From positions 225,205 through 289,204 of the forward strand of contig OZ025753.1 of the NCBI GenBank assembly GCA_964019335.1: a DNA stretch of 64,000 nt, read 5' to 3'. This document shows positions 11,927 through 40,235 of this stretch, in pieces. The notes beneath the pieces were generated by a model. That model did no database searches. It was not told where the DNA came from and worked only from the letters and a program-made list of their open reading frames with translations. A program made the position numbers and the translations under genes. Every line of letters begins with the position of its first letter. Position 1 is the stretch's first letter. This DNA comes from Diplonema japonicum (lineage: Eukaryota > Protista > Euglenozoa: Diplonemea).

Positions 11927-12205
11927 ATGTCAGTAGATTTACACATGGTGCTCCCTGACAGGACAGTGGTCCCCTTAGAAGCCCACTGCAAGGATAGCAT
12001 CAGGTTACTGAAGGCACGTGTGGCAGAGCAGGCAGGGATGAACCCTGGATCCATTTCACTTACTTTCAACGATGAAGTGCTAGAAGGCAGCTTGAAGGTG
12101 GGAGATTGCCCGTTTGCTGACCAGAGTAGGGTGCACGTGGTGCTTGCAGGGAAGCAGGTGGCTGCGATTAAGATACAGGACTACTGGAGGAGAGTGCGCC
12201 GTTAG
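11927..12205 (+). CDS. Ubiquitin-like domain protein with an IQ-like tail (possibly a first exon or truncated)
   Basis: MSVDLHMVLPDRTVVPLEAHCKDSIRLLKARVAEQAGMNPGSISLTFNDEVL...PFADQSRVHVV is paralogous to the UBL at 33237. AAIKIQDYWRR resembles an IQ motif. Confidence 0.6.
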   Translation: MSVDLHMVLPDRTVVPLEAHCKDSIRLLKARVAEQAGMNPGSISLTFNDEVLEGSLKVGDCPFADQSRVHVVLAGKQVAAIKIQDYWRRVRR

Positions 12206-12494
12206 ATTACATGTCCCTTTAGCCCTAGCCCAAAGCAAACAGAATGCTGTTTTTCTTTTTTTTTTTTCTGGCATTCCTCCCTCTTTTTCTGCTTCTTTTT
12301 TGTTATTCTTTTTTAAGTTTTTTATAGCTCGTTCGGATTAAAATGTCAACTGTGACAACACTTTTTTTGGGAAAGAAGTTTCGAGAAAGCTTTTGTTTTT
12401 TGCATGGACTGATGAAGAAGATCTGGCACACATGGGAGCTAGGGAGGGTACTGAAGAAGGTGAAAGGAGGGAGCCTTCCCAGCGGAACCGTGCT

Positions 12495-12660
12495 ACGATC
12501 CATCGGGAGGACAAAGGCGGTGATCGGATGGAACAAGAGGGCGATATTTGCATCACCGAAGACCAAGCATGACCTAGAGGCGCTGAAAGGACAATGGGCA
12601 AGAAAGAAAGGAAAAAGCGAGAACAAGGAGGCGCAAAGACTTCCTTTAACTCATATATAT
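12495..12660. repeat. Dispersed repeat family C (probable retroelement 3' fragment)
   Basis: Matches 59450-59690. The tail CAAAGACTTCxTxTAACTCATAT also occurs at ~29380-29415. Confidence 0.65.
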
Positions 12661-13679
12661 ATTTGTTTTGATTATTTGGGCAAAAAAGAAAAGAGCAGCA
12701 TGCAACTATAGGAAGACGACATATATGTTGTACCTGTTGCCGTTCTTTCAATTGCGATGCCGTGAGAGTAGCAGGCTTTGCAACCGATTGGTCCCGGTAA
12801 GCGAAAAACAGAGGTCAGAAAAATGGCAGAAATGTAAAACCGCAATTTTTAAAGCTTAAAATACAGCAGCTGGCGCAAGTGGAGATAGAACCACTACACT
12901 CTACTAGACGGGATGGTGTGAGGCACACAGCACACCAAAATCGGCATCTGTGGGGACAAACACGTCACGAAACCTCTGCGAGGTGGTACCGGTGAGACGT
13001 GTTGTGTTACATCAGCAAAAAAAAACCTGGCGTGTGAAGCGACCGTGGGTGTCTCACCCAGGAAGTGCGCGTGAACGTGCCTGAACATGCGGCGGGCCTT
13101 TTTCTGTATCATGGACAGGTCACCCTGAAGAACTACTGTTTGTTCTTGTGGGGTCATTTCTCTTTTCTTTAATTTGACATTTCTTCTTCTTCGAAAAGTC
13201 TTTTTAGTTTTTTCGTTGTAACAGTTCGTCTGGAAAGAAATGTTGACAAAATGGACCCTCTTTTGCAGAGGAAAACCCTCGGAAAGATTCTTTAGCTAAA
13301 AAAGTAGTCCACTTCGTATGCAGAAGGGCCGTCTAAAGGCCATATCTCTTACTCTAAGTACTTTTAACAGCAAACTGACCCCGAGTTGTACTCGGGGTAA
13401 CAAGTGCTGCAAAACACCACTTTTATGCACCCTGGTCTTCCTATGCAAGCGGGCACTGCACACCGTTGCCATGGGTGGCTGGCCTCGTCGTGGAAGGACT
13501 CGTTGTGCGTCGTGTACCAGCTCGTTGCTCCCGTTCTTGAACTAGAGTGATCCACACTTGACCAGGTTTTATACATGTTATTTTTCGTATCATGTCACCC
13601 TCCCCCTTTTCCATCACGCACCACCAGGTTCTCCCCCTTTTCGTTGTGAATTACACAAGAAAGGAAATAAGAAGAAACG

Positions 13680-16600
13680 ATGCCTTCCATCACGGAGGTG
13701 TTGGAGAAGCAAGATAATCACAACGCAAGGATGCGTCAGACGGCATTGCTCGCTTCGAAGGGCGGCGAGGACGTGGAGGCACTGCTGAAGAGGTTAGCGG
13801 ACGATGAGCTGTCTCCCTGGCTGGGGACGTACGCGATCGTGGCGGCGGCGGTGAGGAAGGACGGAGCTACCTTGGGCGAGGTGGTTAGAAGAAGCAAGTC
13901 GTGGATCCTGACGGCAAGGGCTGTGCAGGCTTTGGCAAAGTTCGACCAGACACAGGTCGGGGAGATCTTCCTCCACAAGGACACCTCGCTGCAGCTGAAG
14001 TCCGTGATCGTGCCGACCTTGGTGCAGATCAACGCCTCTATCCTTCAAACAATACAAGAGAACTCTGTGCTGGGGGGCTCTTGGCTTGCGTTGCTGCTCC
14101 TCTGTCGAACCACCATTACTCCTGCACACAAGGAGCTCGTCCGCGCGTGGCTCCCGAAGCTGGCAAGGTTCACGAAGCTGGAGCCCAAGCCAGGAACGTC
14201 GGCCTACGCACCCCTTGGGAAGAGTCACGTCTATGGAAAGATCGATTTGGAGAACATCTACCAGTCCCTGGCGAAGAAGTACCCCGAGGTGCTACTGGAG
14301 ATGCTTGGTGCGGAGACAGACTTCGACTTCAGGTGGTACAGGTCGTCGAGGGAGCTGGCCGCCTCGCACCCCGACGAGATGATGAAGATCTTCGAGAAGC
14401 ACAGCGGCAGCTCCAGGGGAGTGTGGTTTCTCTCGAGGCCCCTTGTTCGGCACCGCCCAGAAGAGGTACTGTTGATCTTCAAGCGGATCGGTGCTCTTTC
14501 AGCTGCGTTTGCCTGGTGTTTCAAGAAGTTGATGTACTCCCCGAGGCACCGGGAGGTGGGGCTGGACGTGATTGCTCATTGTATACCGGGGACCACGAAC
14601 GACAAGGACATCAGGGCAGTCGTGCGTTTGATGGTGAAGCTGCTGAAGGAGGGGCACACGTCGAGAAGGATCCACGACACCCTTTGTGACCTCGTTGCCG
14701 CGTACACAGTGAAGGACAGCGTCTTCGAGCTGAACGACCTGATGGAGCAGGGGAGGGGGGTGGACAAGTGGAGCTTCGACCCTTCGCAGGAGAGGGTGGA
14801 TGCCCTCGTGGCTCGGCAGCTTCGCGTCGGCAGGGTGAACATCAAGCGGTGTCAGGACGGGAAGCTCAAGGCGGCACTGGATCACTGCGCTGTGCAGGAG
14901 GAGCATGCAGAAGTGGTGGGCGAGATTGTGAGGAACCATGCGGGATGCCGGAACATGCTTCCACGGAAGGTGGTGCAGCAGGTGCTCGGCGAGTGGGTCG
15001 TCTCCGCCGACTTCTCTTCCCTCGACGTGGTGACCAAGGCGTCCACATACTCAGACATGGACATCGGTACCTCCGAGGAACCGCTGAAGGCGCTGCTTGG
15101 CACGCACGATGCTGCTGAGAGGACCGCAGTGCTGGTGGCTCTGGTGACCGCTTCCGCAAGGTCTCGGAAGAGTACAAGCCGTCTCATGGACTGGATCAAG
15201 ACGCGCATCAAGAACGAAGAGGCCTCTGTGACCGCCCCGGTCATGAAGTGCTTGCTGGAGGAGACGCCGTTCGAGAACTTCGAGACGACAGTGGAGTCTG
15301 TCCAGCACTTGGAAGAGCTGTTCAGCCTCTGCTTGGACTGGGGGGCTAGTGACTGGATGAGCTCCTGGTCGTTCTGGGCTGCTTCTGCCTTTGTTCACCA
15401 CCAGGTTCTCTCACCTTCGAGCAAGGAAAGGGAAAACAGTGTTCTGAGGTTCAGCAAGGATGTCTTGGGGAGGATGGATGATGCACGGGTGCAGACTGCG
15501 AAGGATGTCCTGGAGGCCTACAACAAAGCAGCCGTGAAGGTCAAGGAGAGGTTGGACAAGAAGAGCTATGAAGCCGTTGGGACACAGATGGTGAAGTACG
15601 CTGAGATGGCATACAAAAGGCGCATCAGAGTCAGCGACGATGAGGCCGCGAAGTACTACAACCTCAAGCGTCCAGAGATAGTTGCCTTCACTAACCTGAA
15701 CAGCTTCGTGGAGCTTATCAAGGTAGCTGGGGTAGAGTTTGTGACTGGTGCTCCGCGGCTAGCGTGTCACGCAGAAACACTAATCGAAGGCATCACAATG
15801 ACCTACCCTGTCAGTGCGAAGTGCCTGAACGAACAGACCGATGTGTTATCGAGCACTACATTATGGAGGGGTGTCTGCGTGAAGGCCCTTTCCGGGCTCA
15901 AGAAGAACAAGGAGGACGGCTTGAAGGTCTGTGGACTGGTTTCCACGTATCTCAAAAGGCTTCCCATCACGGAGAAGTCTTACAAGGAGAAGCTCGGGAA
16001 GGGTGCAAGCGACGTTGATGCTGTGAAGAGGTACCTTCAGTTCTACAAGCCACTGCTTCTCGAAGCGTGTAAAGTGTACTCAGCAAAGTGGAAGCAAGAT
16101 GAAACTTCTAAAACATGGTGGTCCACAACCTCCTCGATCTTCAAGGAGTACCTTGTGGACAACCTGAGGTACATACCCGAGGTGGAAGCGGGTGTCATAG
16201 GCATCATCAATATGAGCGTTGGCATTAGCAGCCTTTTTAGGTATAAGAACTACACAGCTGAACTAGTTCGCGAAATAAAACATCCTGACGAGCATACAAA
16301 AGATGTTTTCAAGTTCGCGGTTGAGCACGTGGATCCAAACATATGCAAAGATGTGGTAATCAGCCTGGCTGAGTACTGCGATCCGAAGCACGTTGCATTT
16401 GTTGCCCGCCCCTCACGTACCTTTGATGCCACCTCGCAGTCCCACCACAGGCGGCCCAGGTTTAGGTTCCAACGAGGGTCCGCAGCTGCCCGCCGCAAGG
16501 CTTCCATAGCAAAGAAGAAGAAGGACTGCGCCCAACGGGCCAAGGATTCCGAGGGTTGGGGAGCACCTGTTGCAAAGCTCATGCAAAAGCTTAGTCATAA

Positions 16601-18944: not shown

Positions 18945-19238
18945 GAGTTGAGAAGGTAGTGGAGAATTCAACTTGTACTTATGTTCCCCTCGCACAACAC
19001 CAAATAAGAGAATTAATAACGAATGAAAAAGAATGAATAAAAAAGAAGGAAGTCGGTTTATATCTTTTGCTTTCTGTGCACAATATCGGAGAAGAAGAAA
19101 ACTGAAAACATTCTTGTGAACATTCCTTTCGTCGGCATTTTATTTTGATTGTTTCCCTCCTTTCTTCCTTTGCTGCATATCAAAAAGAAAAAAAAGAAAT
19201 GCCACAATACAGGACACAAGAAAAAGCAAAAAAAAGAA

Positions 19239-21623: not shown

Positions 21624-21665
21624 GGGTGGGGAATGGGTTTACAAACTGTATTTTTTCGGGTTTTG

Positions 21666-21697
<32 letters not shown>

Positions 21698-22475: not shown

Positions 22476-24611
22476 ATGTCCCTAGCATGTGAGCTTTCGG
22501 GGTTGAAAGGGATGAGAGATGTACTGACACCCGAGCAGTTCGAGGCAGCAAAGGACGCTGTTATCGGGGACTACGTAAAGAAGACGGAAAGAGATGCTGA
22601 GACAAAACGCAGTGTGGAAGATAGAGAGCCCCCCGCATTCACCGTCCGTCTATTCTGGGACATGTCTGGTGACGGCGTACCGAATATCGCAGAGCTCTCA
22701 GATGAAGCGAAACGGCTGCAGGAGATGTTAGTTACCAACTGGGATCCAAGCAAAGTGCACTTCGACGGCCGTTCTTACCACTCTGAGAAGATAGATGTGT
22801 CGGATGAGGCCACAGCTGCACTACGCAATGCAGGCTTGGGACCTATACAAAGGAAGTACACTATGATATCTGATCTCACGAAACTGATGGACAACGCAGA
22901 ACCGGCATCTCAGCTGTTGGTGGTGTCTGTCGTGGGTGGAGGCGAATGGTCAGGCATCATCGCCGATGTTTTGAAAGACCTGCAAGAGTACGGGTACAAA
23001 ACGGCAGTCGTTTCCAGCAACGAAGCCTTTCGCCCTATGGGGGCGTTCATCAACTGGAATGAACTGAAGAAGGAGAGGAAGGCAGCAGCCGATCCCACGG
23101 AGCAGAACCCTCCCAAGATGGATGCCCAGATCATAGCAGCACAACTCCGCAAGAAGGTTAAACTCTTAGAAGAAAAGATTGCAATGCAGCAGCTTCTAGA
23201 GCACCAGCCTTTAGAACAGATTCCGAAGCAGCCAGAGAATATAGATGTAATGCTCTACTGGGACACCCAGTTATGCCCCGTTCCCCGAGGCATGACCTTG
23301 GAACAAGTCATGCTGAATGTTTTAAAAGTACTACACACATTGTCGGAGAGGTGGTTCCCTGAGGAGGTCGAGGCACCTATATACCAGTTTCTGGGAGGCT
23401 TTGTCTCTGGCTGCCTTGATAGTGAGAGGTTCGAACACCAAGGCCTGACCCGTGTGGCGTCCTTGCTCCCTTCCATGGAAGAGCATGGGAAGGTTTGTTC
23501 CGTTAAAAACACGGTTTTCGTAGCAATCGCTGTCGCCCCTCCGCCTGTGTGCAGCAATAGAGGGCTGAAAACGGTGGTCTTGATGGACGTGGATAGTGAT
23601 GTGACGGGCTTCCCGTCGTTCAAATGGAACACGTTTAAAGAGTGTGTGGCACCGGTGTCGCAGCGAATCGTTCACGTCAACGTGTTTTGGGACGCAGTGC
23701 ATTCACCGCCCGGAGCGGCGTTCAGCAGATCGACTTTGTATTTTAACAAGTGGTTCATGGAACAGGCGGCGGAACAATTCCCAGGGGATGGTCTTGTAGC
23801 CTACCGGCTTCACGGTTGCGTGTACACAACGCAAAAGGATTTCCCATGGGACGACTGTACATGTCTCAAGCCGAGTGCAAGCCTTGTTGATGATGCTGCT
23901 GCCTTCTCGTACCCTCTGAACCCCGCCGACCGCGTCAATTCCATCATCTTCATCGTCTCCAGCAATCCTGTCGCTATAAGAGCCAAAAGGTCCTTCGCCC
24001 GAAGCGGATACAGTAGTAATAGAATTATCCATGTTGAATCGGTAACCTGTTCCTTGGTGTTGGATCGTTCCGCACCCATATCGGAGAAAAGAAAAGGTCT
24101 TTTACCGTTGCCGGCGGAGAAAAGATTCCGGCACTTACAAACAACGGCCAGTTCCTCTTTGCCGGCGGAGAAAAGAATGAAGGTGGAGGTAGGAGTGTTG
24201 GGTCACAGCAGTGTCGCTCCCGCGCAGGCACCCACACATAATTGGTGGCACGAAAGACCGCCGCCGCCACCTGGCCGCCTGCCGCCACACGTGGTTGAAA
24301 GTTTGGAAAAAAGGTGGACGAAGGTAGTTAGGGTTTTGAGGTCTCAGGAGTTCTTAACCGCAAAGCAAAGTCACACTGAGCTCCCTGCTGCGCTGCGGCC
24401 TCCTGACATCTACAGCGTGATAACCACGAAGAAATTTAAGAAGTGTGTGACGAGATGGCGCAATGCACTTATGTTCTATAGGGCGCCCAAACAGAAAAAG
24501 GACAAGGCGCTCAAGAAGGAAATGAAAAAAGCAGCTGCAGCTAAATTTGCGAATACCCCGTTTCCTACGTATGAAGATGTGGTCGGCGGCGCCTTCATTC
24601 CGTTTTCCTAG
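22476..24611 (+). CDS. SHOCT-like + three tandem NYN (PIN-like) domain protein, paralogue 1
   Basis: N-terminal ELSGLKGMRDVLTPEQFEAAKDAVI (SHOCT-like). Three units begin RLFWD, MLYWDTQLCPVP and NVFWD. Unit 1 ends ..LKDLQEYGYKTAVVS, as NYN domains do. Confidence 0.7.
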   Translation: MSLACELSGLKGMRDVLTPEQFEAAKDAVIGDYVKKTERDAETKRSVEDREPPAFTVRLFWDMSGDGVPNIAELSDEAKRLQEMLVTNWDPSKVHFDGRSYHSEKIDVSDEATAALRNAGLGPIQRKYTMISDLTKLMDNAEPASQLLVVSVVGGGEWSGIIADVLKDLQEYGYKTAVVSSNEAFRPMGAFINWNELKKERKAAADPTEQNPPKMDAQIIAAQLRKKVKLLEEKIAMQQLLEHQPLEQIPKQPENIDVMLYWDTQLCPVPRGMTLEQVMLNVLKVLHTLSERWFPEEVEAPIYQFLGGFVSGCLDSERFEHQGLTRVASLLPSMEEHGKVCSVKNTVFVAIAVAPPPVCSNRGLKTVVLMDVDSDVTGFPSFKWNTFKECVAPVSQRIVHVNVFWDAVHSPPGAAFSRSTLYFNKWFMEQAAEQFPGDGLVAYRLHGCVYTTQKDFPWDDCTCLKPSASLVDDAAAFSYPLNPADRVNSIIFIVSSNPVAIRAKRSFARSGYSSNRIIHVESVTCSLVLDRSAPISEKRKGLLPLPAEKRFRHLQTTASSSLPAEKRMKVEVGVLGHSSVAPAQAPTHNWWHERPPPPPGRLPPHVVESLEKRWTKVVRVLRSQEFLTAKQSHTELPAALRPPDIYSVITTKKFKKCVTRWRNALMFYRAPKQKKDKALKKEMKKAAAAKFANTPFPTYEDVVGGAFIPFS

Positions 24612-24872: not shown

Positions 24873-26891
24873 ATGTCGGAAGAGGTATCATTGGTGAGCG
24901 AACTGGGCAAGCTCAAGCAACTGTTCGACGACAAAGCGCTGACAAGGGCTCAGTTCAAGGCAGCCACGGATGCAGTCATTGCTAGGTTTAGCAATGCCCC
25001 TGTCAATCCGACTCCGAAGCAGCTACAGGTACGGGTACAGGCACCAGTGGCCATTCCCAAGACCCCACCGTATTTCATTTACCTTTATTGGGACGATAGT
25101 GCTGACTTAGGCCAACAAACGAATTTAGACAATTTGAAGAGGAGCGTGCAGCTCGCAATGCAGCAAAAGTCTGGAATCGACGTCACCAGTGCTGCCATGG
25201 CGGGGTGGTTTTACAGCCGTAAGGGGCGGCAGATATGGCAGGAAACAGAGGGCAGCATGCACGTAGACGGCGACGACAAATCGATGCTCCATGATTTGAT
25301 GGCACTGCCCAAGATGACAAAGACAGTCCTAGTCGTAGTGACCAATAGCTCGGCGGTTTTATCAGCTGATCTGCATGAGCGCAATGGGCTCCAGCACTGT
25401 CTCTTCATCACCGACATGCCGGTTCCGATCCAAAGCAGCATGCATTGCATTGCTTTGCAAGCTGCTCTTATGGGGCACTTGGAGGAGCCAAGTCCACCAG
25501 TACAGAAGGAGGTCGAGCAATCTATCACAACAGAAGCGGAGCCACCTAGAACTAACATCCCCATCTCCTTGCTGTGGGACTGTGCGACGTGTCCTTTGCA
25601 GGTTCCATTTTCTAGATTCGTTGAGCTGTTCAGAAAGCATGTTTCGCAAGTGTTGTCTTGCAGACCTGACGACCTCTGCGTCAGCGGTGGGTACTACTCC
25701 ACGGCGGAGGTGTCGCCTGATCTGTTGGTCGAGATCAACGCGTTCGGTCTGGAAAAGCGGGTAGGTGGCGTGGGCGCCCTTATAACATCTATGCGGGCCA
25801 TTACATCGTTCTCTGCTTTGGGATGTGCCTGCGTCCTGATGACGAACAACGACAGCTTCAAACAGCAGCTCGATTCGCTTCAAAAGGCAAAGGTCAGCAC
25901 GGTAGTGGTCTCGGACGCGTTTCTTGACGGAGGGCGGGACCACAGCCTGCAGTGGGCCGACATGAATGACCGAACGGACTCCGCTGGACACAGATTGCTC
26001 GTGCACTGGGACATGGCAGAGTGCTTATTATCAAAAGCGCACAAGCCGTTCAGCCAGATTCTCATGGAAATCAAGGAACACGTGAAGGCGAAGAAGGTGC
26101 TGGGATGGGACCCTACAAGTGCGTGTTTCAAGGGTACCTACCACAACGCGTCCAGCAACCCGCGCGACTCTGGTGATGTGGAGTTCCACGGGTTGCAGCG
26201 CACGAAGGAGCCGATTAGCACCACGCTGAGAAGGATGGCTGAGATCGCAAAGACAGAGCAACCGCACGCTGCCGTCAAAACCCTGTTGGTGGTGATTGCA
26301 GACGTTGGGCCTTTGAAGAATCAACTGCAGAGCGTCATGAGAGGAGGGTACAGGGTGGCCGTGGTCACTAACAGCATAGTCGAGGTGCCCTCTGTCGTCT
26401 TGTCTATGAAGTGGGACAACTTGCAACGTGTCTCGTTCGAGACTAGCGCCCCTCGTATTATCCCCAATTTCCATGCGAGGGAGAGAGAGGTGAACAACTT
26501 CTCGGGGGAGCTCCCTTTCAGAATCATGAAAGATGAACCTGCTTCGGAAGAAAAGAAGTTTGAAATCCACCTCCCTCCAGCACGACCCGCCGCAGTCCCC
26601 GTGAAGAAGAATAAGGAGGAAGAAGTTGTTGCGGAGCCACCCGTTCCACCACCTCCTGTTGAGTTCATTCTTGCGGACGACTCGGATTCCTCGGAGGATT
26701 ACTTACCGCTGGCGGTGGCCGAGCCGTCGTCTTTTGTGGAGGACGAGGAAGAGCTGTATTGCCCTCAGAGTGCTAATGTGAATACTGCCAGCAGCACCAA
26801 GCGGGCGAACGCAGAAGCTTCGGAGCAACCCGAGGCGAAGCGGCAGAACGTGAACGGCATTAATTATAGTGTTTTGTTGGATGCTGAGTGA
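24873..26891 (+). CDS. SHOCT-like + three tandem NYN (PIN-like) domain protein, paralogue 2
   Basis: ELGKLKQLFDDKALTRAQFKAATDAVI, then units YLYWDD, SLLWDCATCPL...VLMTNNDSFKQQLDSLQKAKVSTVVVS, and LVHWDMAEC...QLQSVMRGGYRVAVVT. Acidic disordered tail. Confidence 0.72.
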   Translation: MSEEVSLVSELGKLKQLFDDKALTRAQFKAATDAVIARFSNAPVNPTPKQLQVRVQAPVAIPKTPPYFIYLYWDDSADLGQQTNLDNLKRSVQLAMQQKSGIDVTSAAMAGWFYSRKGRQIWQETEGSMHVDGDDKSMLHDLMALPKMTKTVLVVVTNSSAVLSADLHERNGLQHCLFITDMPVPIQSSMHCIALQAALMGHLEEPSPPVQKEVEQSITTEAEPPRTNIPISLLWDCATCPLQVPFSRFVELFRKHVSQVLSCRPDDLCVSGGYYSTAEVSPDLLVEINAFGLEKRVGGVGALITSMRAITSFSALGCACVLMTNNDSFKQQLDSLQKAKVSTVVVSDAFLDGGRDHSLQWADMNDRTDSAGHRLLVHWDMAECLLSKAHKPFSQILMEIKEHVKAKKVLGWDPTSACFKGTYHNASSNPRDSGDVEFHGLQRTKEPISTTLRRMAEIAKTEQPHAAVKTLLVVIADVGPLKNQLQSVMRGGYRVAVVTNSIVEVPSVVLSMKWDNLQRVSFETSAPRIIPNFHAREREVNNFSGELPFRIMKDEPASEEKKFEIHLPPARPAAVPVKKNKEEEVVAEPPVPPPPVEFILADDSDSSEDYLPLAVAEPSSFVEDEEELYCPQSANVNTASSTKRANAEASEQPEAKRQNVNGINYSVLLDAE

Positions 26892-27366: not shown

Positions 27367-28207
27367 ATGAATGAAGACCGGACAGAGTCCGTGAGCCTCC
27401 TTGTAACCCTGCCATCCTCAGGATCCCTTCTGTTGGAAACGGACAGGAAAGACACGATAAATAAGTTGAAAGCGAAGATTGCGTCCTCCGCCAACCTGAA
27501 CGCGGCGAACTTTACTCTTTCGTTTCAGGGCGAGGAGCTGGGAGAAGGCGATGCGCTCGTTGGGGAACGCGGGTTTGAGAACAAAAGTTTAATACAGGTT
27601 GTGATGGACAACAAGCGGGATGACGCATTGACACTGCTCTCCAAGATGGGGTGGGGGGACAAAACACCCCAAGACATATACTTAGAGATCTTTGTCACAG
27701 GTGACGACAATAAGTACGCAACCATCCTGAACGCCATGCTGGATGCTAATAAGTGCCAAGATGACGATGCGCTCCGAAGGGTGCTAGTGGAGGCTACCTG
27801 GCGAGGGTACACCTCCTGCCTGCGCATAATTTTAACACGCACCCAGATCGATGTTAACTCAGAGACGCAGCAGGGAAGCTTTCCTTTAATACGTGCAGCT
27901 GCCAAGGGGGATGCTCGCATTGTGTCCCTGTACCTTGACCACAAGGCTGATATAAATGTGCGGGATGCATCGGGTGCGACAGCTCTGCTTCGTGCCTCCA
28001 TGCATGGCTGCGACGATGTCGTTTCGTTGCTGCTTGACTACGGGGCCGACCCGGGTATTCGAGACAATCTGCGTATGATAAAAAAGGGGGAAAGGGGTTT
28101 GGGGGAAAAAACACGATTTCTTTTTTTCACTCGCAGGCCGTCTTCCTGCTGATTGGGCAAACATAAACAAGCACGATGCCGTAGCTCGTTTGCTGGCACC
28201 TTCTTGA
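27367..28207 (+). CDS. UBL + ankyrin-repeat protein, join(27367..28072,28137..28207)
   Basis: UBL N-terminus (DTINKLKAKIA..NFTLSFQGEEL) and ankyrin repeats (FPLIRAAAKGD, TALLRASMHG). Removing a GTATG...CGCAG intron completes the last repeat (DNLRRLPADWANINKHDAVARLLAPS*). Confidence 0.82.
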
Positions 28208-28476: not shown

Positions 28477-28521
28477 AGAGCAGGGCATCATAGAGCAGGG
28501 CATCATAGAGCAGGGCATCAT
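28477..28521 (+). repeat. 15-bp tandem repeat (AGAGCAGGGCATCAT)x3
   Basis: Three exact copies. Confidence 0.9.
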
Positions 28522-28689
28522 AGGGTAGGCACGCACTGTGGTCGTTGCTTACACTTTATCGCCCAATCACGTTGCCTCTCTTGCCAGTGGACAAAAAAGG
28601 CAAGAATAGTGAGAGGCAAGGGCTGCCTTCCAGCGAGAGGCAAAGGCTAAGTTGTGAAGGTCCGAGGCCATCGGAGACAAGCGTGCCAT

Positions 28690-28855
28690 CCTCGGTCATC
28701 ACCGGTAGCACCCGAGTGGAAGAACGTATTGCAGATGCTCAAGGTGACGAACAGGCAGCAAACTGCACGAGCGAAGTCTTGGTTACCCGAGGCGTCCCGG
28801 CTAGGGTTCAGTTGCACACCGCACGCGGAAGAAACTACAGCTCGGCCGCGGTGTT
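28690..28855. repeat. Dispersed repeat family E copy
   Basis: Aligns with 61240-61420 (CCGGTAGCRCCCGAGTGG...GCAGATGCTCA...CTTGGTTACCCG...GTTGCACACCGCACGC). Confidence 0.75.
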
Positions 28856-30007: not shown

Positions 30008-31017
30008 ATGTCTGTGGCTCTACACGTGCACCTTCCATCTGGGAGCGCTCTTGACATTGCCATGGAGGGCCATGAGCTGGTGGAACAGCTTAAGGAAAAG
30101 GCGTCCGTAGCTGGTTGAAAACAGACACGTTTCTTTTGATGTTTGAAGGAGAAGAGTTGCGCGGGGAGCAACATGTTTGGGAGCAGCCGTTCGAGGACTA
30201 GAGCGATCTGGAGGTGGTGACGAAAAAAGATACTGAGCTCGAAGCCTACTTCGAGAAGCTTGAGAAACTGAAGGAAGATCACAGTGGGGACCACATAGAT
30301 ATTGTCACAATCCTTTCGAAGATCGCCTCTCGATGCAAGATGAGTGGCGACGTCGCCATCGCTCTGCAATACTGCACAGAGGCACTGGACATGGCAGGAC
30401 GCATCGACAAGGTTCCGATTTTAACCGCGTCACTGTTGTACTTGTTGGGCAACATACAGAAGGCAGCCAAGGACTACCCCACAGCATTGCAGACACTGCA
30501 CGCTTGCATGAAGGTGCGGAAGAGTTTCCATGCAAACATCGAAAGCATCCACTTCAACATCGGACACGTCCACAGGCTGCTGGAGGATCACCAGATGGCA
30601 TTGCATCACTACAAACAAGCACTCCGGCTCCTCGGCAGATCAAGCATCCATGTGAAGCTTAAGTATTTGACGCGCATAGCTACGACGTATCTTTCTATAG
30701 GTGACAGCAATGCTGCACTGGCGCGCTACCTTAGGGCTTTGGAAATGGGGGATCTCGCATGCCTGAAGAGTCCATCTGTTGCCTCTAGGATGGTAAGGGT
30801 CGCGGACATCTACGAGTCAATGGGCGACACCGACAAGGCTTGTCTGTACCTTGTCGACTCCGTCGAGATGCTGAGGAGCATTGACTCGGTTGATCACCGC
30901 CCCATCATCGCCACCACCTCTGACAGGATAGCCCAGCTGTCCCACGATGCAGGCAATCTTGCGGCTGCTGCAGAGTACCGTGGCATCGCCTCTGAGATGC
31001 GGGGCTGTCAGGACTGA
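30008..31017 (+). pseudogene. UBL + TPR protein, disrupted
   Basis: ATG 30008 gives MSVALHVHLPSGSALDIAMEGHELVEQLKEKA. There is a 1-nt frameshift near 30114 and an in-frame TAG at 30199-30201 where paralogues have PFEDQS. Intact TPR motifs follow (LYLLGNIQKAAKDYPTALQ, HFNIGHVHRLLEDHQMALHHYKQAL). Confidence 0.75.
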
Positions 31018-31136
31018 AGCATAGCAAAGCAGTGCGCACACATTAGCTTAGACGTTGAGGATATTAAAGAATGTTTGGGAAGGGACTCCTCATCAGCCAG
31101 ACAGCTGCACAGATTTAAAAAAGAAAAAAAGAAAAG

Positions 31137-33236: not shown

Positions 33237-34088
33237 ATGTCGGTCAGCCTATGTGTCAAGCTGCCCTCACAAGAGGCCATCGCCATCGAAGCAGGTGGGG
33301 GAGACAGAATCGAGGCGCTGAAGGCACGTATTGCTGAATTAAAAGGCTACGACGTTGGTAGCATTTCACTAACATTCGAAGAGGAGGAGCTGAAGGAAGG
33401 CAACAAGGTGTGCGACTACCCCTTCGAGGATCAGAGCGAGGTGGTGGTGGTCCTGGGCAGGAAACAAGCCGCCCTCTTGGCACTGGACACAATGAAGTGG
33501 ACAGCAAGAACAAGACGCTTAGCACAGGCAGAAATGAATCTGGTAGACGAGGAGCGGTTCGTGGCAGCGTTGGAGCTGATGCACGATGCCGACCTCCTTG
33601 ATGCAGAGGTGGACAAGCTGCTGTGGAATGCAGTGACTTGGCATAAGCTGAAGGTCGTTGAGGTTATCTTGTCCCGCGGCATGGTCGACACAGAGAAGGC
33701 GTTGTTTAGGAACCCCGTTCATGAAGCGGCAAGCATGGGGCTTGAGGATGCTCTTCGCATTCTGCTTCGGTACATGAAGACCGTCCCCTTAAATGCTGAA
33801 AGAGCGACTCCTCTTCATGTGGCAGCAAGTACAGGCAATAAGCGCATCACAGAGCTTCTGATCGATACTTGGCCAGCTCAAGTGAACATGGTTAACCGAC
33901 GCAATGAAACGGCTCTTCATTGTGCTGCGGGGCTCGGGCACAAACGCGTCGTTCGGGTCCTCTTGGACAGGGGCGCCGACCCGTCAGCGAAGGCGAAGGG
34001 TTCCACCCCCGCCTCCGTGGCGCGCAATAAGAACGGGAACTTCTGTCCTTCCTTCGCAAGGTTCATTGAATCGTACTCATCGCTGTGA
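33237..34088 (+). CDS. UBL + ankyrin-repeat protein
   Basis: UBL (DRIEALKARIAELKGYDVGSISLTFEEEEL..PFEDQSEVVVV) and ankyrin repeats (NPVHEAASMG, TPLHVAASTG, TALHCAAGLGHKRVVRVLLDRGAD). Confidence 0.9.
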   Translation: MSVSLCVKLPSQEAIAIEAGGGDRIEALKARIAELKGYDVGSISLTFEEEELKEGNKVCDYPFEDQSEVVVVLGRKQAALLALDTMKWTARTRRLAQAEMNLVDEERFVAALELMHDADLLDAEVDKLLWNAVTWHKLKVVEVILSRGMVDTEKALFRNPVHEAASMGLEDALRILLRYMKTVPLNAERATPLHVAASTGNKRITELLIDTWPAQVNMVNRRNETALHCAAGLGHKRVVRVLLDRGADPSAKAKGSTPASVARNKNGNFCPSFARFIESYSSL

Positions 34089-34470
34089 GCATGCTGGGGG
34101 GGGGGGGGGCGTTATTAGATTAGCTTTTCTTTTTCGAAGGTTTCTTCCACTTTTCTTTAGGGGTGGGGTTTCTTTGTTGGGAACAGAACAAAGAAAAAAC
34201 TACCCTCTTTTTTTTTAACAAAGTAATCGCAAAAGAAAAGAGTAGAGGCAGCTTGTCTGTTTATCCCTACTGTAGGTGAAGACGGCTTGCACAAATTATC
34301 CACTGACTCTTTTTAAATCCTGGTCCCCCTCCCCCCTCTTTCACTAACCATGGTCATGCCGGTTTCTCTTCGGTGACGTCTTTCTGTACTTTCTTTTGGA
34401 AAGCCCAAAGGACCCGAGTTCAGGGTCCAAATAGCCATTCCAGTTTGAGATACACAAGGGAAAGAAAACA

Positions 34471-36534
34471 ATGCATGATGAGGAAGAGGAGTTAAGAATG
34501 CCCGAAAAGGCGAAGAAGGATGTTATCAAGAAGGTAGTACTTCTGGGTATTGAAAAGACAGGGAAGACAACGCTCATCAAGCGTTACGTTCATGATATAT
34601 TCAGTGAGCGGTACAAGTCAACTATTGGTGTAGATTTCTCTCTGAAGCAACTTACTGTGGGCGACACATGTCTTCGTTTGCAACTGTGGGACGTAGGGTC
34701 GGATAGTATTGTGAGATCTGGATCGATGATGCGTATCTACCTTAAGGACACAGCAGCTGTTGTTATGGTGTATAACAGTGCAGATAAGGCATCGCTTGAC
34801 TCTCTTGAGGAAGTCTATTCGACATTGAGCGAACACTTAAAAGGAATACCTTTGTGTTACATTGGTACGCACAGCGATATGAGGGAGGAGGAAGAAGCGA
34901 AGCCTCACAGCGACGCAAGCAAGAAGAAAGTTGTCTCGGATGACGAAGTTCAATCCTGCGCGCTGCGAATCCGCCCCTCTGAACCAGTGCGCTCCTTCAT
35001 GGTGTCCAGCAAAACCGACGAAGGAGTAAAAGATGCGTTTTACAGTTTGGCCAAGTACCTGACCCTTCCTCATGTGCGCCTTATCTACGTTAAGAATTGC
35101 GACGAAGACATGATTCGAGGTCTCGCAGAAGGGGTTTGCAACATCACAATGACAAGTGTGTCTTCAGAGGATTCCCTTAGAGTTGCCATCGAAGCCGACG
35201 CATTAAGTTCACACCTCATTCTATTATACCAGGAAGCGCGTTTGTCGACAAGATGGTTGGCGACGATTATGAGGGGTGTCAGGAAATATGTCCTCCCTAA
35301 GGTCAACGTTCTTTTTCTCATGCTCAATTGCCCAGAATCTGAGACAGTACCTAGACAAGCGATTGACATATTTCTAGCTTCTCGTGAAGCCGCGCAACTC
35401 TCGTACTCCCAGGCGAGGTACAGCCAGCTCACCATTGATGAGCTGCGGGAGTTCTGCGCAGTAGATGGCGATGTAGCACCTTCAAAAGGCTTCATCGTGA
35501 CGCTTCGTTGTGATGATGATTTTAAGGAGTTGCCCCTGACTCTTCCCAGAAGAGATGTGTTAGTTGAAGCGTTGTGCATAGTTACAGCATCTAGTTTTTA
35601 CAATACGGAAAAGAAGGTGTTCCTCACCATTGGCAAGGCGTATACCGCAACGGGCACCATCAGAGCAGAGAAGACCATCTCTTTCTCCTCCTCGTTCATC
35701 CCAGCGAGGAAGAACTGCGTTGAAATATGGCACGAGGGCAAGGTGGTCCCTGCTGTAGTAACACCACACGGAGTACCCAACATCCAGTATCACGTTTTTA
35801 GTCTCCCCGGAACTGGAGCTTTTGAAGCACATTGGTGGGGATCACCGCTCATAGCACCTGTCGGGACTCATGTAAACACACCCTTTGAAATAGAATGGAC
35901 TGCTGATAAACATGGGCTAAGTACATGGGAGTCGGTACTCACCACGAATGAGGAGCACGCTCTGCCGGCACGAAGCTTCCCTCCTTGGGGGGCCTCTTCT
36001 ATTGGCGTCATGGGGGTGGTGCATCCTTTGACAGCATCGAGCGCTTCGTATCTAATTGTAACCGGTTATGAAAAAAGTGGGAAGAAGTCGGTGTCGAGAT
36101 GGCTTTCTAATTCTTTCGAGCTGAGCAGAGAGGAGGACTGTTACGTGGGCTCCTTCGGGCACGAAGGTGCTACGAAGAGAGTTTACTGCTGTGACCTCGA
36201 TTCGAAGGCTTTGGAGGTACACAACAGGCCAGCTGGTATTATTTTCGTCATGAATCGCAAACATCTTAATCAAGGAGGAGACGTGGTCTCCTTAGAGCTT
36301 CTCCGTCGCTTCGAGGCGTTGTCCGCCACCTCCGCCCTTGTCCCCATCCTCGTCTACCTGAATAAGGAGGATGACGACAAAGATGAGGGCACAGGCCTGA
36401 TCGAGGACCTTTTGGAGAAGCTGAAGAAGGGGTTCAAGTCCGATGTGGTACACCTGCAGGCATCGTCTGCAACCTGTGGGAAAGGTATCGTAGAAGGGCT
36501 ACGTTTGTTTGTACAGATGATTTTGGAACAATAG
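34471..36534 (+). CDS. Multidomain small-GTPase fusion: Rab32/38-like + TIR-like + Arf-like
   Basis: N-terminal GIEKTGKTTLIKRYVHDIFSERYKSTIGVDFSLK..RLQLWD (Rab32/38-like). C-terminal GYEKSGKK..GIIFVMN..PILVYLNKED..LQASSATCGKGIVEGL (Arf-like). Central alpha/beta segment resembles a TIR domain. Confidence 0.8.
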   Translation: MHDEEEELRMPEKAKKDVIKKVVLLGIEKTGKTTLIKRYVHDIFSERYKSTIGVDFSLKQLTVGDTCLRLQLWDVGSDSIVRSGSMMRIYLKDTAAVVMVYNSADKASLDSLEEVYSTLSEHLKGIPLCYIGTHSDMREEEEAKPHSDASKKKVVSDDEVQSCALRIRPSEPVRSFMVSSKTDEGVKDAFYSLAKYLTLPHVRLIYVKNCDEDMIRGLAEGVCNITMTSVSSEDSLRVAIEADALSSHLILLYQEARLSTRWLATIMRGVRKYVLPKVNVLFLMLNCPESETVPRQAIDIFLASREAAQLSYSQARYSQLTIDELREFCAVDGDVAPSKGFIVTLRCDDDFKELPLTLPRRDVLVEALCIVTASSFYNTEKKVFLTIGKAYTATGTIRAEKTISFSSSFIPARKNCVEIWHEGKVVPAVVTPHGVPNIQYHVFSLPGTGAFEAHWWGSPLIAPVGTHVNTPFEIEWTADKHGLSTWESVLTTNEEHALPARSFPPWGASSIGVMGVVHPLTASSASYLIVTGYEKSGKKSVSRWLSNSFELSREEDCYVGSFGHEGATKRVYCCDLDSKALEVHNRPAGIIFVMNRKHLNQGGDVVSLELLRRFEALSATSALVPILVYLNKEDDDKDEGTGLIEDLLEKLKKGFKSDVVHLQASSATCGKGIVEGLRLFVQMILEQ

Positions 36535-36702
36535 TCGCCAACCGAGTTTTTTTTTAAATCCTGACGGCAGACTGTTGATGCAGAAGGGTTGCCCGTTGAC
36601 GGCCTATAACCGATATACGTCCTTTTTTTGAGTACTTGTTTCTTCTTTTGCTGCAGCTTTGTCTCAATAACATCACAACAGTTTAGCGGTTTTCTATTTC
36701 AA

Positions 36703-38202
36703 ATGGCTTCATTACAGAATCTGCTGGTGTGCGTCCTCTGTGCTTGCGCAGACAGTCTGACCCTGCACAAGGTTATCGCAGTGTCCAGGCACAGCGTGCG
36801 TGTGGGGGAAGGCGGCCAGCCAGGGATGTCGCGAGACGGCAGGAACTGGTTCACGGACTACGAGAAAGACTGGGGAGCGCAAGGGCCGGGGAACCTCACA
36901 GTTCACGGGAAGGCTGCAGCGAAGGAACGGGGCAAGTGGTGGAGACAGCTGTATGTTGAAACGGGCATCGTTCAAGACGCCAGGAACATCACGGTGTACG
37001 CAGACGGCAGCGACCCAACAAACAGGGAGAAGGTCACCGGCGAAGGCTTCCTGTCGGGTTTCCTCCCTGCGAGCGAAGTGCACATGCACCTTGAACCTGT
37101 CTTCTCGAAAAACATGTTTGGCCATGGCGCAACGAGGAATGCATCTGATTACCGTTGCGGTGTTCCCGGCAAGGCTACTGTGGATGGACTCATAGGTGGA
37201 AGCATGTCAAGGATACACACCATCATCGATCCTGCGATGGAGAAGGCGACAGCACAGTACGATTGCTGCAGCGACACAATCTGCGAGCAGTACGGCGGGA
37301 CGGACACACCGTGCACCTTTACGAACATCCCTGAGGTGTGGAACTCGGGAATGGGGTTCTATGTAGGGTCGTGGGTGACCGGTCTTATGGCTACCGACTA
37401 CGTTTCGATGATGTACGTGAACAACATGTCGTGGGACCAGGTGGCGCAGAACACGGGCAGCTTCGTGGACTGGATGCAAGAGGTGGAACGTCCCATTAGT
37501 AACGTGTTTCACACCTATGTTTCGTCGGATCAGTATTGCCGTGCATATGGCAGCCAGTTCTTACGGCACATTGGTGACACAATGCTGCAGATCACATACG
37601 GGGAGGAGACCTACGGACTTGACTCAAAGGCCGCGGACAGCATGGTGCTGTACTTCGCACACGGGGAGAACATTGGTTACCTTACGCGACTGCTGCAGTT
37701 TCAGTGGGTGTTTGAGATGTGGGGTGCAATGAACGTTCCTCCTGTGTGCATGCTCGTCTTTGAGATATTGAAGGAGGGAGAGATGTTCTACGTAAAAGCG
37801 TATGTTGAGACGCAGCAACCAGAGCAGATACGGAACCTGGAGGAGCTGTCCCCTGAGTCCCCTCCTGACAGGGTATTCGTTTCGATCCCCGACTGTTCGC
37901 ATGGCCCTGAGGCTTCCTGCCCTGTGAAGGACTTTGTGAGCATTATCTACGATGCGATCCTCAGCACGTGCACCATGCCCTACAAGGAGGGCGACGAGCC
38001 CACCCCAGCTCCTACCAGCGCACCAACTCCTGTTCCTTCGGAGACATCTGAGTGTTCCAGCAAGACAGGGCTTATTGTAGCCGTTGCAGTTTTGGCTTTC
38101 CTTGTCTGTTGCTTGCTCACTGCCATGTTTTACTACTACAAGAGATTTGCATCTGGAAGCGTGGATAAGGCTGAATATATCGAAAGTGTCGCTGTCAACT
38201 AG
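36703..38202 (+). CDS. Type I membrane histidine acid phosphatase (clade 2, phytase/AppA/Agp-like)
   Basis: Signal peptide, RHSVR nucleophile motif, GNLTVHG, LYFAHGENI, PPVCMLVFE, PT linker and a C-terminal TM helix. Confidence 0.85.
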   Translation: MASLQNLLVCVLCACADSLTLHKVIAVSRHSVRVGEGGQPGMSRDGRNWFTDYEKDWGAQGPGNLTVHGKAAAKERGKWWRQLYVETGIVQDARNITVYADGSDPTNREKVTGEGFLSGFLPASEVHMHLEPVFSKNMFGHGATRNASDYRCGVPGKATVDGLIGGSMSRIHTIIDPAMEKATAQYDCCSDTICEQYGGTDTPCTFTNIPEVWNSGMGFYVGSWVTGLMATDYVSMMYVNNMSWDQVAQNTGSFVDWMQEVERPISNVFHTYVSSDQYCRAYGSQFLRHIGDTMLQITYGEETYGLDSKAADSMVLYFAHGENIGYLTRLLQFQWVFEMWGAMNVPPVCMLVFEILKEGEMFYVKAYVETQQPEQIRNLEELSPESPPDRVFVSIPDCSHGPEASCPVKDFVSIIYDAILSTCTMPYKEGDEPTPAPTSAPTPVPSETSECSSKTGLIVAVAVLAFLVCCLLTAMFYYYKRFASGSVDKAEYIESVAVN

Positions 38203-38780
38203 AGGGTTTTGTTTCGGTTTCTTCTTCTTTTTTTTTTTTTTGGATGCGAGGACAGGCTTTGGCATATGAGCTCTTCTGCAGCAAGATCTTTCAGAAGTCT
38301 TGTCTTTTCTATTTTCTTTGAATGACATTTGAGGAAGGCGCATCTGCAACCATTCGAACACTTTTTTGTTGCTTCTCTCCTTTTTTCTTTGGCGGGCCGT
38401 TGCTAACCACTTCGTTCCTATCATAGTGAATTCTTTTCCATTCCCTAGCTTTCCTTTTTTTTGTTGTTAAGAAACGAGTGATACGTCGTCCCCAGCAAAG
38501 ACCTTCGATTGTTGGTTCAACATTACTCTTCTCCTTTCAATCTTTGTAACCTTTTCTTTTTTACTTCTTTTTTCTTTTTTTGCTTCTTGTTCTCTGTTTG
38601 TCTTTTCCCTGAAATGTGTCTTTTCTGTTATGAGATATGTGGTGTTGTTGTGTGTCATTAGACAAATCTCCGTCGCAGTGACGGAAATGCAAAAAGAAAC
38701 AGAAATAGAGATTCTCAATATCCGTTTATTTTGTTATTTCTTTTTATGTCAGGCAAACAAATTCGCAGGAGTATACGAAG

Positions 38781-40235
38781 ATGAGCATAACGGTTTTTCT
38801 GCGTACGCCGCATGGGGTGCATGATGTAGACGTGAAGGGCTCGGAGACGGTGGGGTGCTTGTACACGAAGGCCTCGCATGCAGCTGATCTAGCAGAAGGA
38901 AGGTTCAAGCTGATCTGGAATGGAGGGGTCCTGGATAGGGGCATGCATGAACAGATACAAGGAAGTGGCATGGCAGAAGGGAGTGAGGTTTTAGTGGAGG
39001 CGGACACGTCCGTGAGACAGGGAGAGCTGACAGCCAGACGCAGTGAGCTCGAGGATAGTGTTAAAGCTGACCCCGAGATGGTTCTTGTGGTGGATGTGTC
39101 AGGAGGCGGGGAAGTGTGTAACTTACACAATTCTGAGCTTCCTGCAGGGATTCGGCACCTTGTCCTCATCGACCCCGAGAAGCGTGTAACGACGTTAGGC
39201 TCTAATTTTCTCAGCGGACATCCCTCTCTGGTGTCTGTTGATTTAAGAGACCTATGCAATGTTGTCACTATCTGTAACAGTTTTCTTTACGGGTGCAGAG
39301 CACTCGTTTCCGTCGAGTTAAGCGGGTTGAACATTGAATCTATTGGAAGTGACGTTCTTTACTGTTGCACCTCACTTAAGTCCGTCGACCTGAGTACCTG
39401 TACGAGGGTGAAGTCCATCGGCAATAGCTTTCTGTTTAGTGCTCGTTCCCTCACGTGCGTTGATATGAGCAGTTTATGCAGCGTTGAGACTATTGGGAGT
39501 GGTTTTCTTGTGTCATGCTCGTCCCTAACCTTTCTTGACCTGAGCTGTATGCGCAGTCTACGGTCCATCCATGGTGGCTTCTTGTCACACTGTACTTCTC
39601 TTTCTGCTGTTGATTTAAGCGGTTTTGACAATCTCAACTCCGTCGGCTCCGGCTTCCTGGTACACACTTCCCTTGAATCCGCGGATTTGAGTAGCCTGAG
39701 AAATGTTGTATCAGCTGGTGACTATTTCCTCGCAGGTTGCGCTTCTTTGACTTCTGTTAATTTGAGCGGCTTAAATAAAATGAGAACCATTGGTTCCCAT
39801 TTTCTTGCGGGGGACACCTCCCTCGTAGAGGTGGATTTAGGTGGCATGGAGAGCATCACGACTGTTGGGGACGACTTTCTTTCTGACACTGCCTTGGCTG
39901 CTGTCGATTTGACCCCGTTGTCGAACATTCACTTGAGCAAGCCGCGCTGCTTGAGCAAAGGCCTCATGATTGAGAATATGCTGCCCAATGGTTTTCTGAA
40001 AGGTTGTCGCTCGTTAGCTGTGCTTGACTTCCACCCCTTAGGTATTGAGCGTCTTGACCCAGATACTGACCTCGTGGGGTGCATTTCGTTGGCCACTATC
40101 AGACTCGCAGGAACAGCAAGCTTTCAGACACGAGAACAGGCAGCTGCCACACCACAAGCTGTTTGTGTGAAGAACGAGGGGAAGAAAAGAAAGCGCGGAG
40201 AGTCAATGTTCATTGGTTTCGCGGGGGCCGCTTAG
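38781..40235 (+). CDS. UBL + leucine-rich repeat (BspA/LRR_5-like) protein
   Basis: UBL (MSITVFLRTPHGVHDVDVKGSETVGCL..FKLIWNGGVL), then about 10 repeats of LxSVDLSxLxxVxSIGxxFLxxCxS. Confidence 0.88.
   Translation: MSITVFLRTPHGVHDVDVKGSETVGCLYTKASHAADLAEGRFKLIWNGGVLDRGMHEQIQGSGMAEGSEVLVEADTSVRQGELTARRSELEDSVKADPEMVLVVDVSGGGEVCNLHNSELPAGIRHLVLIDPEKRVTTLGSNFLSGHPSLVSVDLRDLCNVVTICNSFLYGCRALVSVELSGLNIESIGSDVLYCCTSLKSVDLSTCTRVKSIGNSFLFSARSLTCVDMSSLCSVETIGSGFLVSCSSLTFLDLSCMRSLRSIHGGFLSHCTSLSAVDLSGFDNLNSVGSGFLVHTSLESADLSSLRNVVSAGDYFLAGCASLTSVNLSGLNKMRTIGSHFLAGDTSLVEVDLGGMESITTVGDDFLSDTALAAVDLTPLSNIHLSKPRCLSKGLMIENMLPNGFLKGCRSLAVLDFHPLGIERLDPDTDLVGCISLATIRLAGTASFQTREQAAATPQAVCVKNEGKKRKRGESMFIGFAGAA

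What the first reader, a model, noticed from the sequence alone, without database searches (positions are those of the whole stretch)
11927..40235. Modular arsenal: one UBL head fused to interchangeable recognition modules
Seen: five loci start with a related ubiquitin-like domain lacking the C-terminal diGly (four share roughly D.I..LK.+IA...isL.F..E.L...V...PFEDQS.v.VV; the 38781 copy is more distant). They continue into different modules: IQ-like (11927), ANK (27367), TPR (30008), ANK (33237) and LRR (38781). One is already pseudogenised and one is truncated, indicating domain shuffling and birth-and-death turnover. Inference: a lineage-specific adaptor system in which variable ANK/TPR/LRR sensors capture targets and the constant UBL docks on a shared machine (proteasome, p97 or a cullin ligase), analogous to F-box or BTB adaptor expansions. 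This is a strong candidate for an undescribed system.
Basis: partly seen in the sequence, partly recalled or inferred. Interest (0 to 1): 0.8.

Follow-up and report, generated by a model that had tools for sequence, protein, structure and literature searches.

The report
Ubiquitin-like heads on swappable repeat domains
In a marine protist (likely a diplonemid), five neighbouring genes start with a divergent, acidic ubiquitin-like domain that is joined to ankyrin, TPR or leucine-rich repeats or stands almost alone; it likely serves as a handle by which these target-binding proteins engage a partner that is not yet known.

Summary

Heads: all five genes start with a non-conjugatable UBL. Four heads (11927, 27367, 30008, 33237) form one clade (97/93) yet carry ANK, TPR or almost nothing, so at least one tail swap occurred. 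The 38781 head is a UBL (fold Z 12.8) of another, LRR-linked subfamily; a common origin with the four is unresolved.

Corrections:
- 11927 is not a dead stub. It is a complete 92-aa gene whose contig carries a spliced-leader-like 5' end, with excess synonymous change in its head.
- 27367 is complete, with a 64-nt intron.
- 30008 is broken, but an intact version with a near-identical head exists.

Scope: related heads sit on 25 of 119 LRR homologues (plus 3 by eye), 20 of them on megabase contigs, so this is an expansion. My nine literature searches found no description of it.

Docking claim: weaker than proposed. Heads diverge about as fast as the repeats, are acidic, and mostly lack Ile44 (1 of 34 has it). 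No UBX, F-box or UBA domain was found. A non-canonical link to the ubiquitin system is my best guess (0.4); no partner was tested.

The parts
11927..12205 (+). Free type-A UBL head (aa 1-73) with a short IQ-like tail; complete 92-aa gene, no intron
   Evidence: Pfam ubiquitin 34.7 bits; contigs 11918-12241/12254 and leader-like loose end before 11918; sister to the 33237 head 98/92; pS 0.80, pN 0.34
27367..28207 (+). Type-A UBL + helical linker + ankyrin repeats, 258 aa, two exons (27367-28072, 28137-28207)
   Evidence: Pfam; intron skipped in run X4; spliced length
28073..28136 (+). 64-nt GT-AG intron of the 27367 gene
   Evidence: joint 28072-28137 in run X4
30008..31017 (+). Broken type-A UBL-TPR copy: frameshift near 30100-30112, in-frame TAG at 30199-30201; TPR frame open 30202-31014
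   Evidence: intact relatives P0157 and P0158, TPR-only ORF P0156
33237..34088 (+). Type-A UBL + helical linker + ankyrin repeats, 283 aa
   Evidence: Pfam; EukProt Trinity protein P0006 differs at 2 of 283 residues
38781..40235 (+). Type-B UBL + BspA/TpLRR-type LRR solenoid, 484 aa
   Evidence: Pfam LRR_5; AlphaFold pLDDT 87.9; head Z 12.8 to Dsk2 UBL, LRR Z 27.9 to 4fs7; five relatives with the same head type

Best explanation
These genes belong to an expanded, fast-turning-over family in which a divergent, acidic, non-conjugatable ubiquitin-fold head is joined to ANK, TPR or LRR repeats; the repeats likely bind cytosolic targets, and the head likely acts as a handle that engages a ubiquitin-system partner through a non-canonical surface rather than the Ile44 patch. 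Shown: the architectures, the one-clade origin of four heads with different tails, expansion of UBL-LRR proteins, transcription, decay of one copy, the loss of Ile44/Arg42/Arg72 and the acidic charge. Inferred: target binding by the repeats; a partner bound in trans (from the maintained free head 11927); and that the partner is ubiquitin itself or an Rpn1-type site, by analogy with the acidic UBL of Ddi1. The free head would then act as a competitor or regulator of the fused proteins.
For: Type-A clade 97/93 with ANK x2, TPR x3 and free x1. 25 of 119 LRR homologues carry a related head; shuffled controls score at most 1.5 bits. 20 of them lie on ENA contigs of 11 distinct lengths (0.45-2.2 Mb), 4 sharing one length. 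0 of 6 PhM_4-named LRR homologues carry the head, so it was likely added in a lineage. The free head is processed like an mRNA and conserved at protein level. 34 of 34 heads have net charge -3 to -10 against -1 for ubiquitin. Ddi1's negatively charged UBL binds ubiquitin and Rpn1 (PMC11012796, passages). One relative has a B-box before the UBL-LRR cassette (P0203, E 7.5e-4), a layout recalling TRIM-type ubiquitin-system sensors (recalled).
Against: Of 15 invariant columns among five type-A proteins, most map to ubiquitin core positions (mapping; core assignment from established structure, recalled); only about L7/P8, A31 and V70 are exposed, so a shared docking patch is weakly marked. Heads are not more conserved than the repeats in subfamily B (0.34 vs 0.39; head higher in 7 of 15 pairs) or in P0157 vs P0158 (59/72 vs 181/236, p 0.42). 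Subfamilies A-D share little surface sequence, so several partners or none are possible. The link to the ubiquitin system rests on fold analogy only. The tree has 75 columns, its bootstrap had not settled, and its outgroup was biased to poly-UBL proteins.
Confidence: 0.4

Rival explanations
1. The head is a cis-acting cap: it folds back on, stabilises or oligomerises its own repeat domain (as recalled for SHANK SPN-ANK and parkin), with no shared machine.
For: Conservation is mostly in core positions; each head subfamily is largely tied to one tail class and linker, and the linkers are not homologous between subfamilies (hhalign probability 2.5% or less); SHANK3 and ANKUB1 clusters are look-alikes of P0003.
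Against: A free head is kept, transcribed and under purifying selection; one head clade sits on unrelated ANK and TPR folds.
Confidence: 0.22
2. The head docks on p97 or a cullin-type ligase in an undescribed mode, replacing F-box/BTB adaptors.
For: Adaptor-plus-variable-repeat logic and birth-and-death pattern; weak NPL4-N and UBX Pfam scores in single relatives (E 0.021 and 0.19).
Against: No FPR-type loop (motif recalled) in 34 aligned heads; no F-box, BTB or SOCS/BC-box hit; heads diverge too much for one rigid interface.
Confidence: 0.12
3. The head is a trafficking header, as proposed for Crinkler/RHS (CR) proteins, delivering repeat proteins into prey or endosymbiont compartments.
For: CR proteins are modular, with a Ubl header and exchangeable C-termini, and occur in free-living eukaryotes (PMC5289972, passages).
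Against: No Pfam Crinkler hit and no nuclease, NTPase or kinase tail; heads resemble ubiquitin/Rad23-type UBLs.
Confidence: 0.08
4. Canonical proteasome shuttles that bind Rpn1/Rpn10/Rpn13 through the Ile44 patch.
For: Closest solved sequences and folds are ubiquitin, Rad23 and Dsk2 UBLs; P8 and V70 are kept in type A.
Against: Ile44 in 1 of 34 heads, Leu8 in 0 of 5 type-A heads, Arg42 and Arg72 in 0 of 5, Lys48 is Glu in 4 of 5; receptor binding of ubiquitin maps to L8/I44/V70 (PMC8405992, passages).
Confidence: 0.06
5. Largely neutral turnover: a small, stably folding start domain spreads by duplication and gene conversion in a repeat-rich region, and the heads share no function.
For: A decaying copy, partial duplicates and many repeats in the window; the 68/69 head identity between 30008 and P0157 could be recent conversion.
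Against: Purifying selection on the free head; fold kept across four diverged subfamilies.
Confidence: 0.12

Closest known systems
UBL-UBA shuttle factors (Rad23, Dsk2, Ddi1)
   Same: N-terminal non-conjugatable UBL; best PDB sequence hits after ubiquitin are Rad23 UBLs; best fold hit of the 38781 head is Dsk2 UBL; acidic surface as in Ddi1 (PMC11012796).
   Different: No UBA; repeat solenoids as tails; Ile44 patch eroded; many-copy expansion instead of conserved single-copy genes.
Crinkler/RHS (CR) proteins with Ubl header domains (as reviewed in PMC5289972)
   Same: N-terminal ubiquitin-fold head with exchanged C-termini in lineage-specific expansions.
   Different: CR tails are enzymatic (REase, NTPase, kinase) and the header is SSK1/Mcs4-like; here the tails are ANK, TPR or LRR binders and no Crinkler profile matches.
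ANKUB1 and SHANK (UBL fold followed by ankyrin repeats)
   Same: Same domain order as 27367 and 33237; both are Atlas look-alikes of P0003 at 0.94.
   Different: Animal proteins of fixed architecture; no sequence hit to them from the head; here the same head clade also carries TPR or nothing.
F-box/BTB/B-box plus repeat expansions (F-box-LRR, F-box-ANK, B-box-FNIP; recalled)
   Same: Small N-terminal module with variable repeat sensors, birth-and-death turnover.
   Different: The N-terminal module is a UBL; no cullin-binding motif found; no machine known.

Membership tests
Conjugatable ubiquitin-like modifiers | C-terminal diGly after the last strand | tested here: not met
   0 of 34 aligned heads have GG there (translations)
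UBL-UBA shuttle factors | N-terminal ubiquitin-fold domain | tested here: met
   Pfam, PDB profile and fold matches
UBL-UBA shuttle factors | L8/I44/V70-type hydrophobic patch with basic rim | tested here: not met
   Ile44 in 1 of 34 heads; net charge -3 to -10. Ddi1 shows that an atypical patch can still bind Rpn1
UBL-UBA shuttle factors | C-terminal UBA domain | tested here: not met
   no UBA hit in the 5 window proteins or 17 relatives
UBL-UBA shuttle factors | Binding to Rpn1, Rpn10 or Rpn13 | not testable with these tools
   no receptor sequence of this organism was available
UBX p97 adaptors | UBX profile and R...FPR signature (signature recalled) | tested here: not met
   best UBX score E 0.19 in 1 of 18 proteins; no FPR in the alignment
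Cullin substrate adaptors (F-box, BTB, SOCS/BC-box) | Cullin-adaptor motif N-terminal to the repeats | tested here: not met
   no such Pfam hit
Crinkler/RHS (CR) proteins | CR-type Ubl header | tested here: inconclusive
   ubiquitin fold present, but no Pfam Crinkler hit; the original header profiles were not available
Crinkler/RHS (CR) proteins | C-terminal enzymatic toxin domain | tested here: not met
   tails are ANK, TPR or LRR only
ANKUB1 / SHANK | Orthology of the head and full architecture | tested here: inconclusive
   shared UBL-ANK order; no such hit, both insensitive to distant single heads
IQ-motif proteins (11927 tail) | IQxxxRGxxxR motif (recalled) | tested here: inconclusive
   AAxxIQxxWR is present but the stop comes before the second half; no Pfam IQ hit

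The most novel reading that the evidence does not exclude
Diplonemids run their own adaptor system in place of F-box/BTB expansions: dozens to hundreds of ANK/TPR/LRR sensors carry acidic UBL heads that hand captured targets (for example proteins of endosymbionts or viruses) to the ubiquitin-proteasome system through a non-Ile44 interface, a free, abundantly made head tunes the system, and loci such as 30008/P0157 hold divergent sensor haplotypes behind an identical head.
Probability: 0.2. Interest if true: 0.8.

Novelty: new variant of a known kind. Interest (0 to 1): 0.5.

Why it matters
Diplonemids are abundant marine protists (PMC10161547, abstract), many carry bacterial endosymbionts, and my searches found nothing on how they sense intracellular targets. 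A family of UBL-headed repeat sensors gives a concrete candidate system that can be tested in Diplonema papillatum, described as genetically tractable (PMC8611851, abstract listing). Finding what an acidic UBL without Ile44 binds would widen the known ways of reading ubiquitin-fold domains. If the heads are only caps, it is an ordinary lineage-specific expansion.

Tried and rejected
Genome-wide count: no whole genome is held for this window, so partner domains could not be counted genome-wide. The cluster look-up could not be made.

Profile search of 1.84 billion representatives: swamped by tandem UBL proteins; 149 of the 150 listed rows had 4 or more stretches and only P0006 was a single-head hit. 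It says nothing about heads scoring under 118 bits.

Word search with the 33237 head: 1 hit among 215 candidates.

DNA collections: no relatives in metagenome contigs, viral contigs or prokaryote genomes; these find close relatives only. The head alignment was too variable for pattern scans.

Single-sequence fold of P0003: head at low confidence (pLDDT under 50); not used.

Complex prediction of a type-A head with ubiquitin: never queued because the queue was full; no result.

Atlas search with the 38781 head: scores under 0.8, a lead only.

Sequencing runs: no RNA holder is listed on record; X4 and X5 are read as RNA only from the intron skip and the leader-like end.

Ideas rejected: TAG read as Gln (8 of 14 genes checked end in TAG and long ORFs lack it); a shared linker or UBA-like helix across subfamilies; PB1-like pairing (the beta-1 lysine is kept in 1 of 5 type-A heads; PB1 rule recalled).

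dN/dS on repeat surfaces could not be measured; the one 49-codon TPR stretch available, from the conserved C-terminal part, gave 0.31.

Rfam: no match in the window. Earlier findings by sequence and by words: nothing.
Full report
Setting. The window is eukaryotic, with mostly intron-poor genes on the + strand between A/T-rich spacers. No whole genome is held. A loose end in run X5 before 11918 resembles the diplonemid spliced leader (recalled); the same 22 letters occur once in the window at 44733. Four of the five earlier, unchecked notes on this genome call it diplonemid or Diplonema. I therefore treat it as a likely diplonemid and did not determine the species.

Observation. Pfam ubiquitin passes its cut-off for 11927, 27367 and 33237, and ANK, TPR and LRR_5 tails are confirmed. 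Among the heads of 11927, 27367, 30008 and 33237, all 6 pairs score z 14.8-29.6 against 500 shuffles, at 32-52% identity. 38781 scores z -0.1 to 6.2 against them, and no sixth head was found in the window. The 38781 head is still a UBL: Pfam E 0.0015 alone, beta-grasp topology at pLDDT 80-92 in a model from a 17-sequence alignment, and Z 12.8, 1.5 A over 73 residues to Dsk2 UBL. No head ends in diGly.

Gene status.
- 27367 is complete: run X4 skips a 64-nt GT-AG intron, giving 258 aa.
- 33237 matches a transcriptome-derived protein at 281 of 283 residues.
- 11927 is not a dead fragment. Contigs of X4 and X5 cover 11918-12241/12254 without an intron, one with the leader-like end. Their depth (1025 and 1373, against 11 and 72 for the next long contig) hints at high expression, but contig depth is a poor measure. 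Against the 33237 head it shows pS 0.80 and pN 0.34 over 78 codons, pN/pS 0.31-0.60. DNA likeness to 33237 ends just after the head, so the IQ-like tail may be new; Pfam IQ does not match it.
- 30008 carries a TAG held in X3, X4 and X9 (X11 does not cover it) and a frameshift held only by the window and X4.

The 30008 relatives. A search with this gene returned 3 proteins among 3003 candidates: the TPR-only ORF of the broken copy (P0156) and two intact UBL-TPR proteins (P0157, P0158). P0157 is identical to the window copy at 68 of 69 head positions but only 102 of 153 and 72 of 84 TPR positions (Fisher p 4e-7). In run X3 a 1459-nt contig runs from upstream DNA through an in-frame head and ends at the base before the TAG, at depth 18.9, while the TAG contig has 8.6. 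This fits a second, intact haplotype, but a paralogue or an assembly chimera is not excluded. P0157 against P0158 shows no such contrast (59/72 vs 181/236, p 0.42).

Family scope. A search with 38781 gave 253 hits, of which 120 were listed; I examined the 119 other than the query. An iterated head profile found 25 of 119, and shuffled copies scored at most 1.5 bits. Five are EukProt Trinity proteins with 38781-like heads (type B). Twenty are ENA proteins from contigs of 0.45-2.2 Mb of an unnamed organism (type D). Three more have a UBL-like head seen by eye and supported by profile comparison (type C). Seven of 8 Trinity hits have a head; 0 of 6 PhM_4-named hits do, and none of the lower-ranked, largely bacterial-type hits do. 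One relative has a B-box before the UBL-LRR cassette. These proteins were found through their LRRs, so this is no census of tails.

Trees. On 75 columns and 36 rows (14 of 20 type-D and 15 of 31 outgroup rows left out), type A is one group at 97/93, with 11927 and 33237 as sisters at 98/92. 38781 lies outside it, and forcing it in is not rejected (p-AU 0.157). A quick tree of all 65 rows agrees. All heads separate from the outgroup at 94/96, but the outgroup is poly-UBL units only. ANK and TPR are unrelated folds, so at least one tail swap, and one tail loss or replacement, happened within type A. Grouping the two ANK heads is also not rejected (p-AU 0.324).

Docking surface. Mapped on ubiquitin, Ile44 is kept in 1 of 34 heads. 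Type A has Pro8, Ser/Thr/Leu42, Thr/Ser/Met44, Glu48 (4 of 5), Val70 and no Arg72. All 34 heads are more acidic than ubiquitin. Ubiquitin binds Rpn1 through L8/I44/V70 (PMC8405992, passages), so canonical shuttle docking is unlikely. Ddi1's negatively charged UBL binds ubiquitin and, weakly, Rpn1 (PMC11012796, passages); this is the closest precedent. No UBX, F-box, BTB, SOCS or UBA domain passed. Against a single shared machine: most invariant type-A positions are core positions (core assignment recalled), and heads are only modestly more conserved than repeats in type D (median 0.58 vs 0.50; 167 of 190 non-independent pairs) and not in type B (0.34 vs 0.39; 7 of 15). For a partner in trans: the free head is kept under selection.

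Mechanism. I commit, at 0.4, to repeat sensors with an acidic UBL handle that engages a ubiquitin-system partner by a non-canonical surface, with the free head as a possible competitor. Architecture, clade, expansion, transcription and surface chemistry are shown; target binding, the partner and the role of the free head are inferred. Rivals: cis-acting cap (0.22), p97/cullin docking (0.12), neutral turnover (0.12), CR-like trafficking header (0.08), canonical shuttle (0.06).

Literature. Nine searches gave no paper on UBL-headed repeat proteins in diplonemids. In the D. papillatum genome paper (PMC10161547) a term search of the main text found no 'ubiquitin', 'ankyrin', 'leucine-rich' or 'tetratricopeptide'; in its 7 supplements held as text I saw 2 'ubiquitin-like' rows, both unrelated, and 2 of 27 'ankyrin' rows. 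PMC7052976 had none of five terms in its main text; its supplements were not searched. PMC12621601 (passages) reports mainly GT-AG introns in several diplonemids. CR proteins were seen only through the review PMC5289972 (passages); the original paper is not held. Subscription papers, unseen supplements and database annotations may already note these fusions.

Verdict. A real, apparently undescribed lineage expansion with shown tail swapping. It works like known adaptor-plus-repeat expansions in its logic but is a member of none tested. New variant of a known kind; interest 0.5.

Noticed in passing
window 44719-44756: A genomic copy of a spliced-leader-like sequence of about 39 nt, followed by a short RS-rich ORF at 44916; possibly a retroposed mRNA or a leader-RNA gene copy.
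   Followed up: partly
window 10503-11329: Two near-identical pieces (99.6% and 95.8%) of the 1754-aa HEAT-like gene at 13680, forming an internally deleted duplicate just upstream of the free UBL gene.
   Followed up: no
window 28692-28826 (also 61242-61369, 6118-6164): A short dispersed repeat with summed contig depth 10^4-10^6 in all four runs laid; no Rfam match.
   Followed up: partly
window 63541-64000: Perfect ACCCGCAA array, 57.5 copies, running off the window end; the UBL cluster may lie near a satellite or chromosome end.
   Followed up: no
window 34435-36534: Ras/Roc-family GTPase domain at the N-terminus and a second, Arf-like P-loop domain at the C-terminus, next to the 33237 UBL-ANK gene.
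   Followed up: no
window 22476-24611 and 24873-26891: Adjacent, distantly related genes (E 1.7e-5 at the N-terminus), one with a weak NYN score (E 0.044); possibly tandem NYN-like proteins.
   Followed up: partly
window 50419-54633: About 1370-aa Pro/Thr/Ser-rich mucin-like protein with a likely signal peptide and C-terminal membrane helix.
   Followed up: no
proteins P0200, P0203, P0168: Similar Cys/His-rich N-termini before the LRRs; P0203 has a Pfam B-box (E 7.5e-4) and the UBL head between it and the LRRs, a TRIM-like layout.
   Followed up: partly
window 6385-8097: Protein with a weak actin-family match (E 0.0036) and an F-box-like 'LPHDVVVNVLSYL' stretch near its C-terminus (pattern recalled, not tested).
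   Followed up: no
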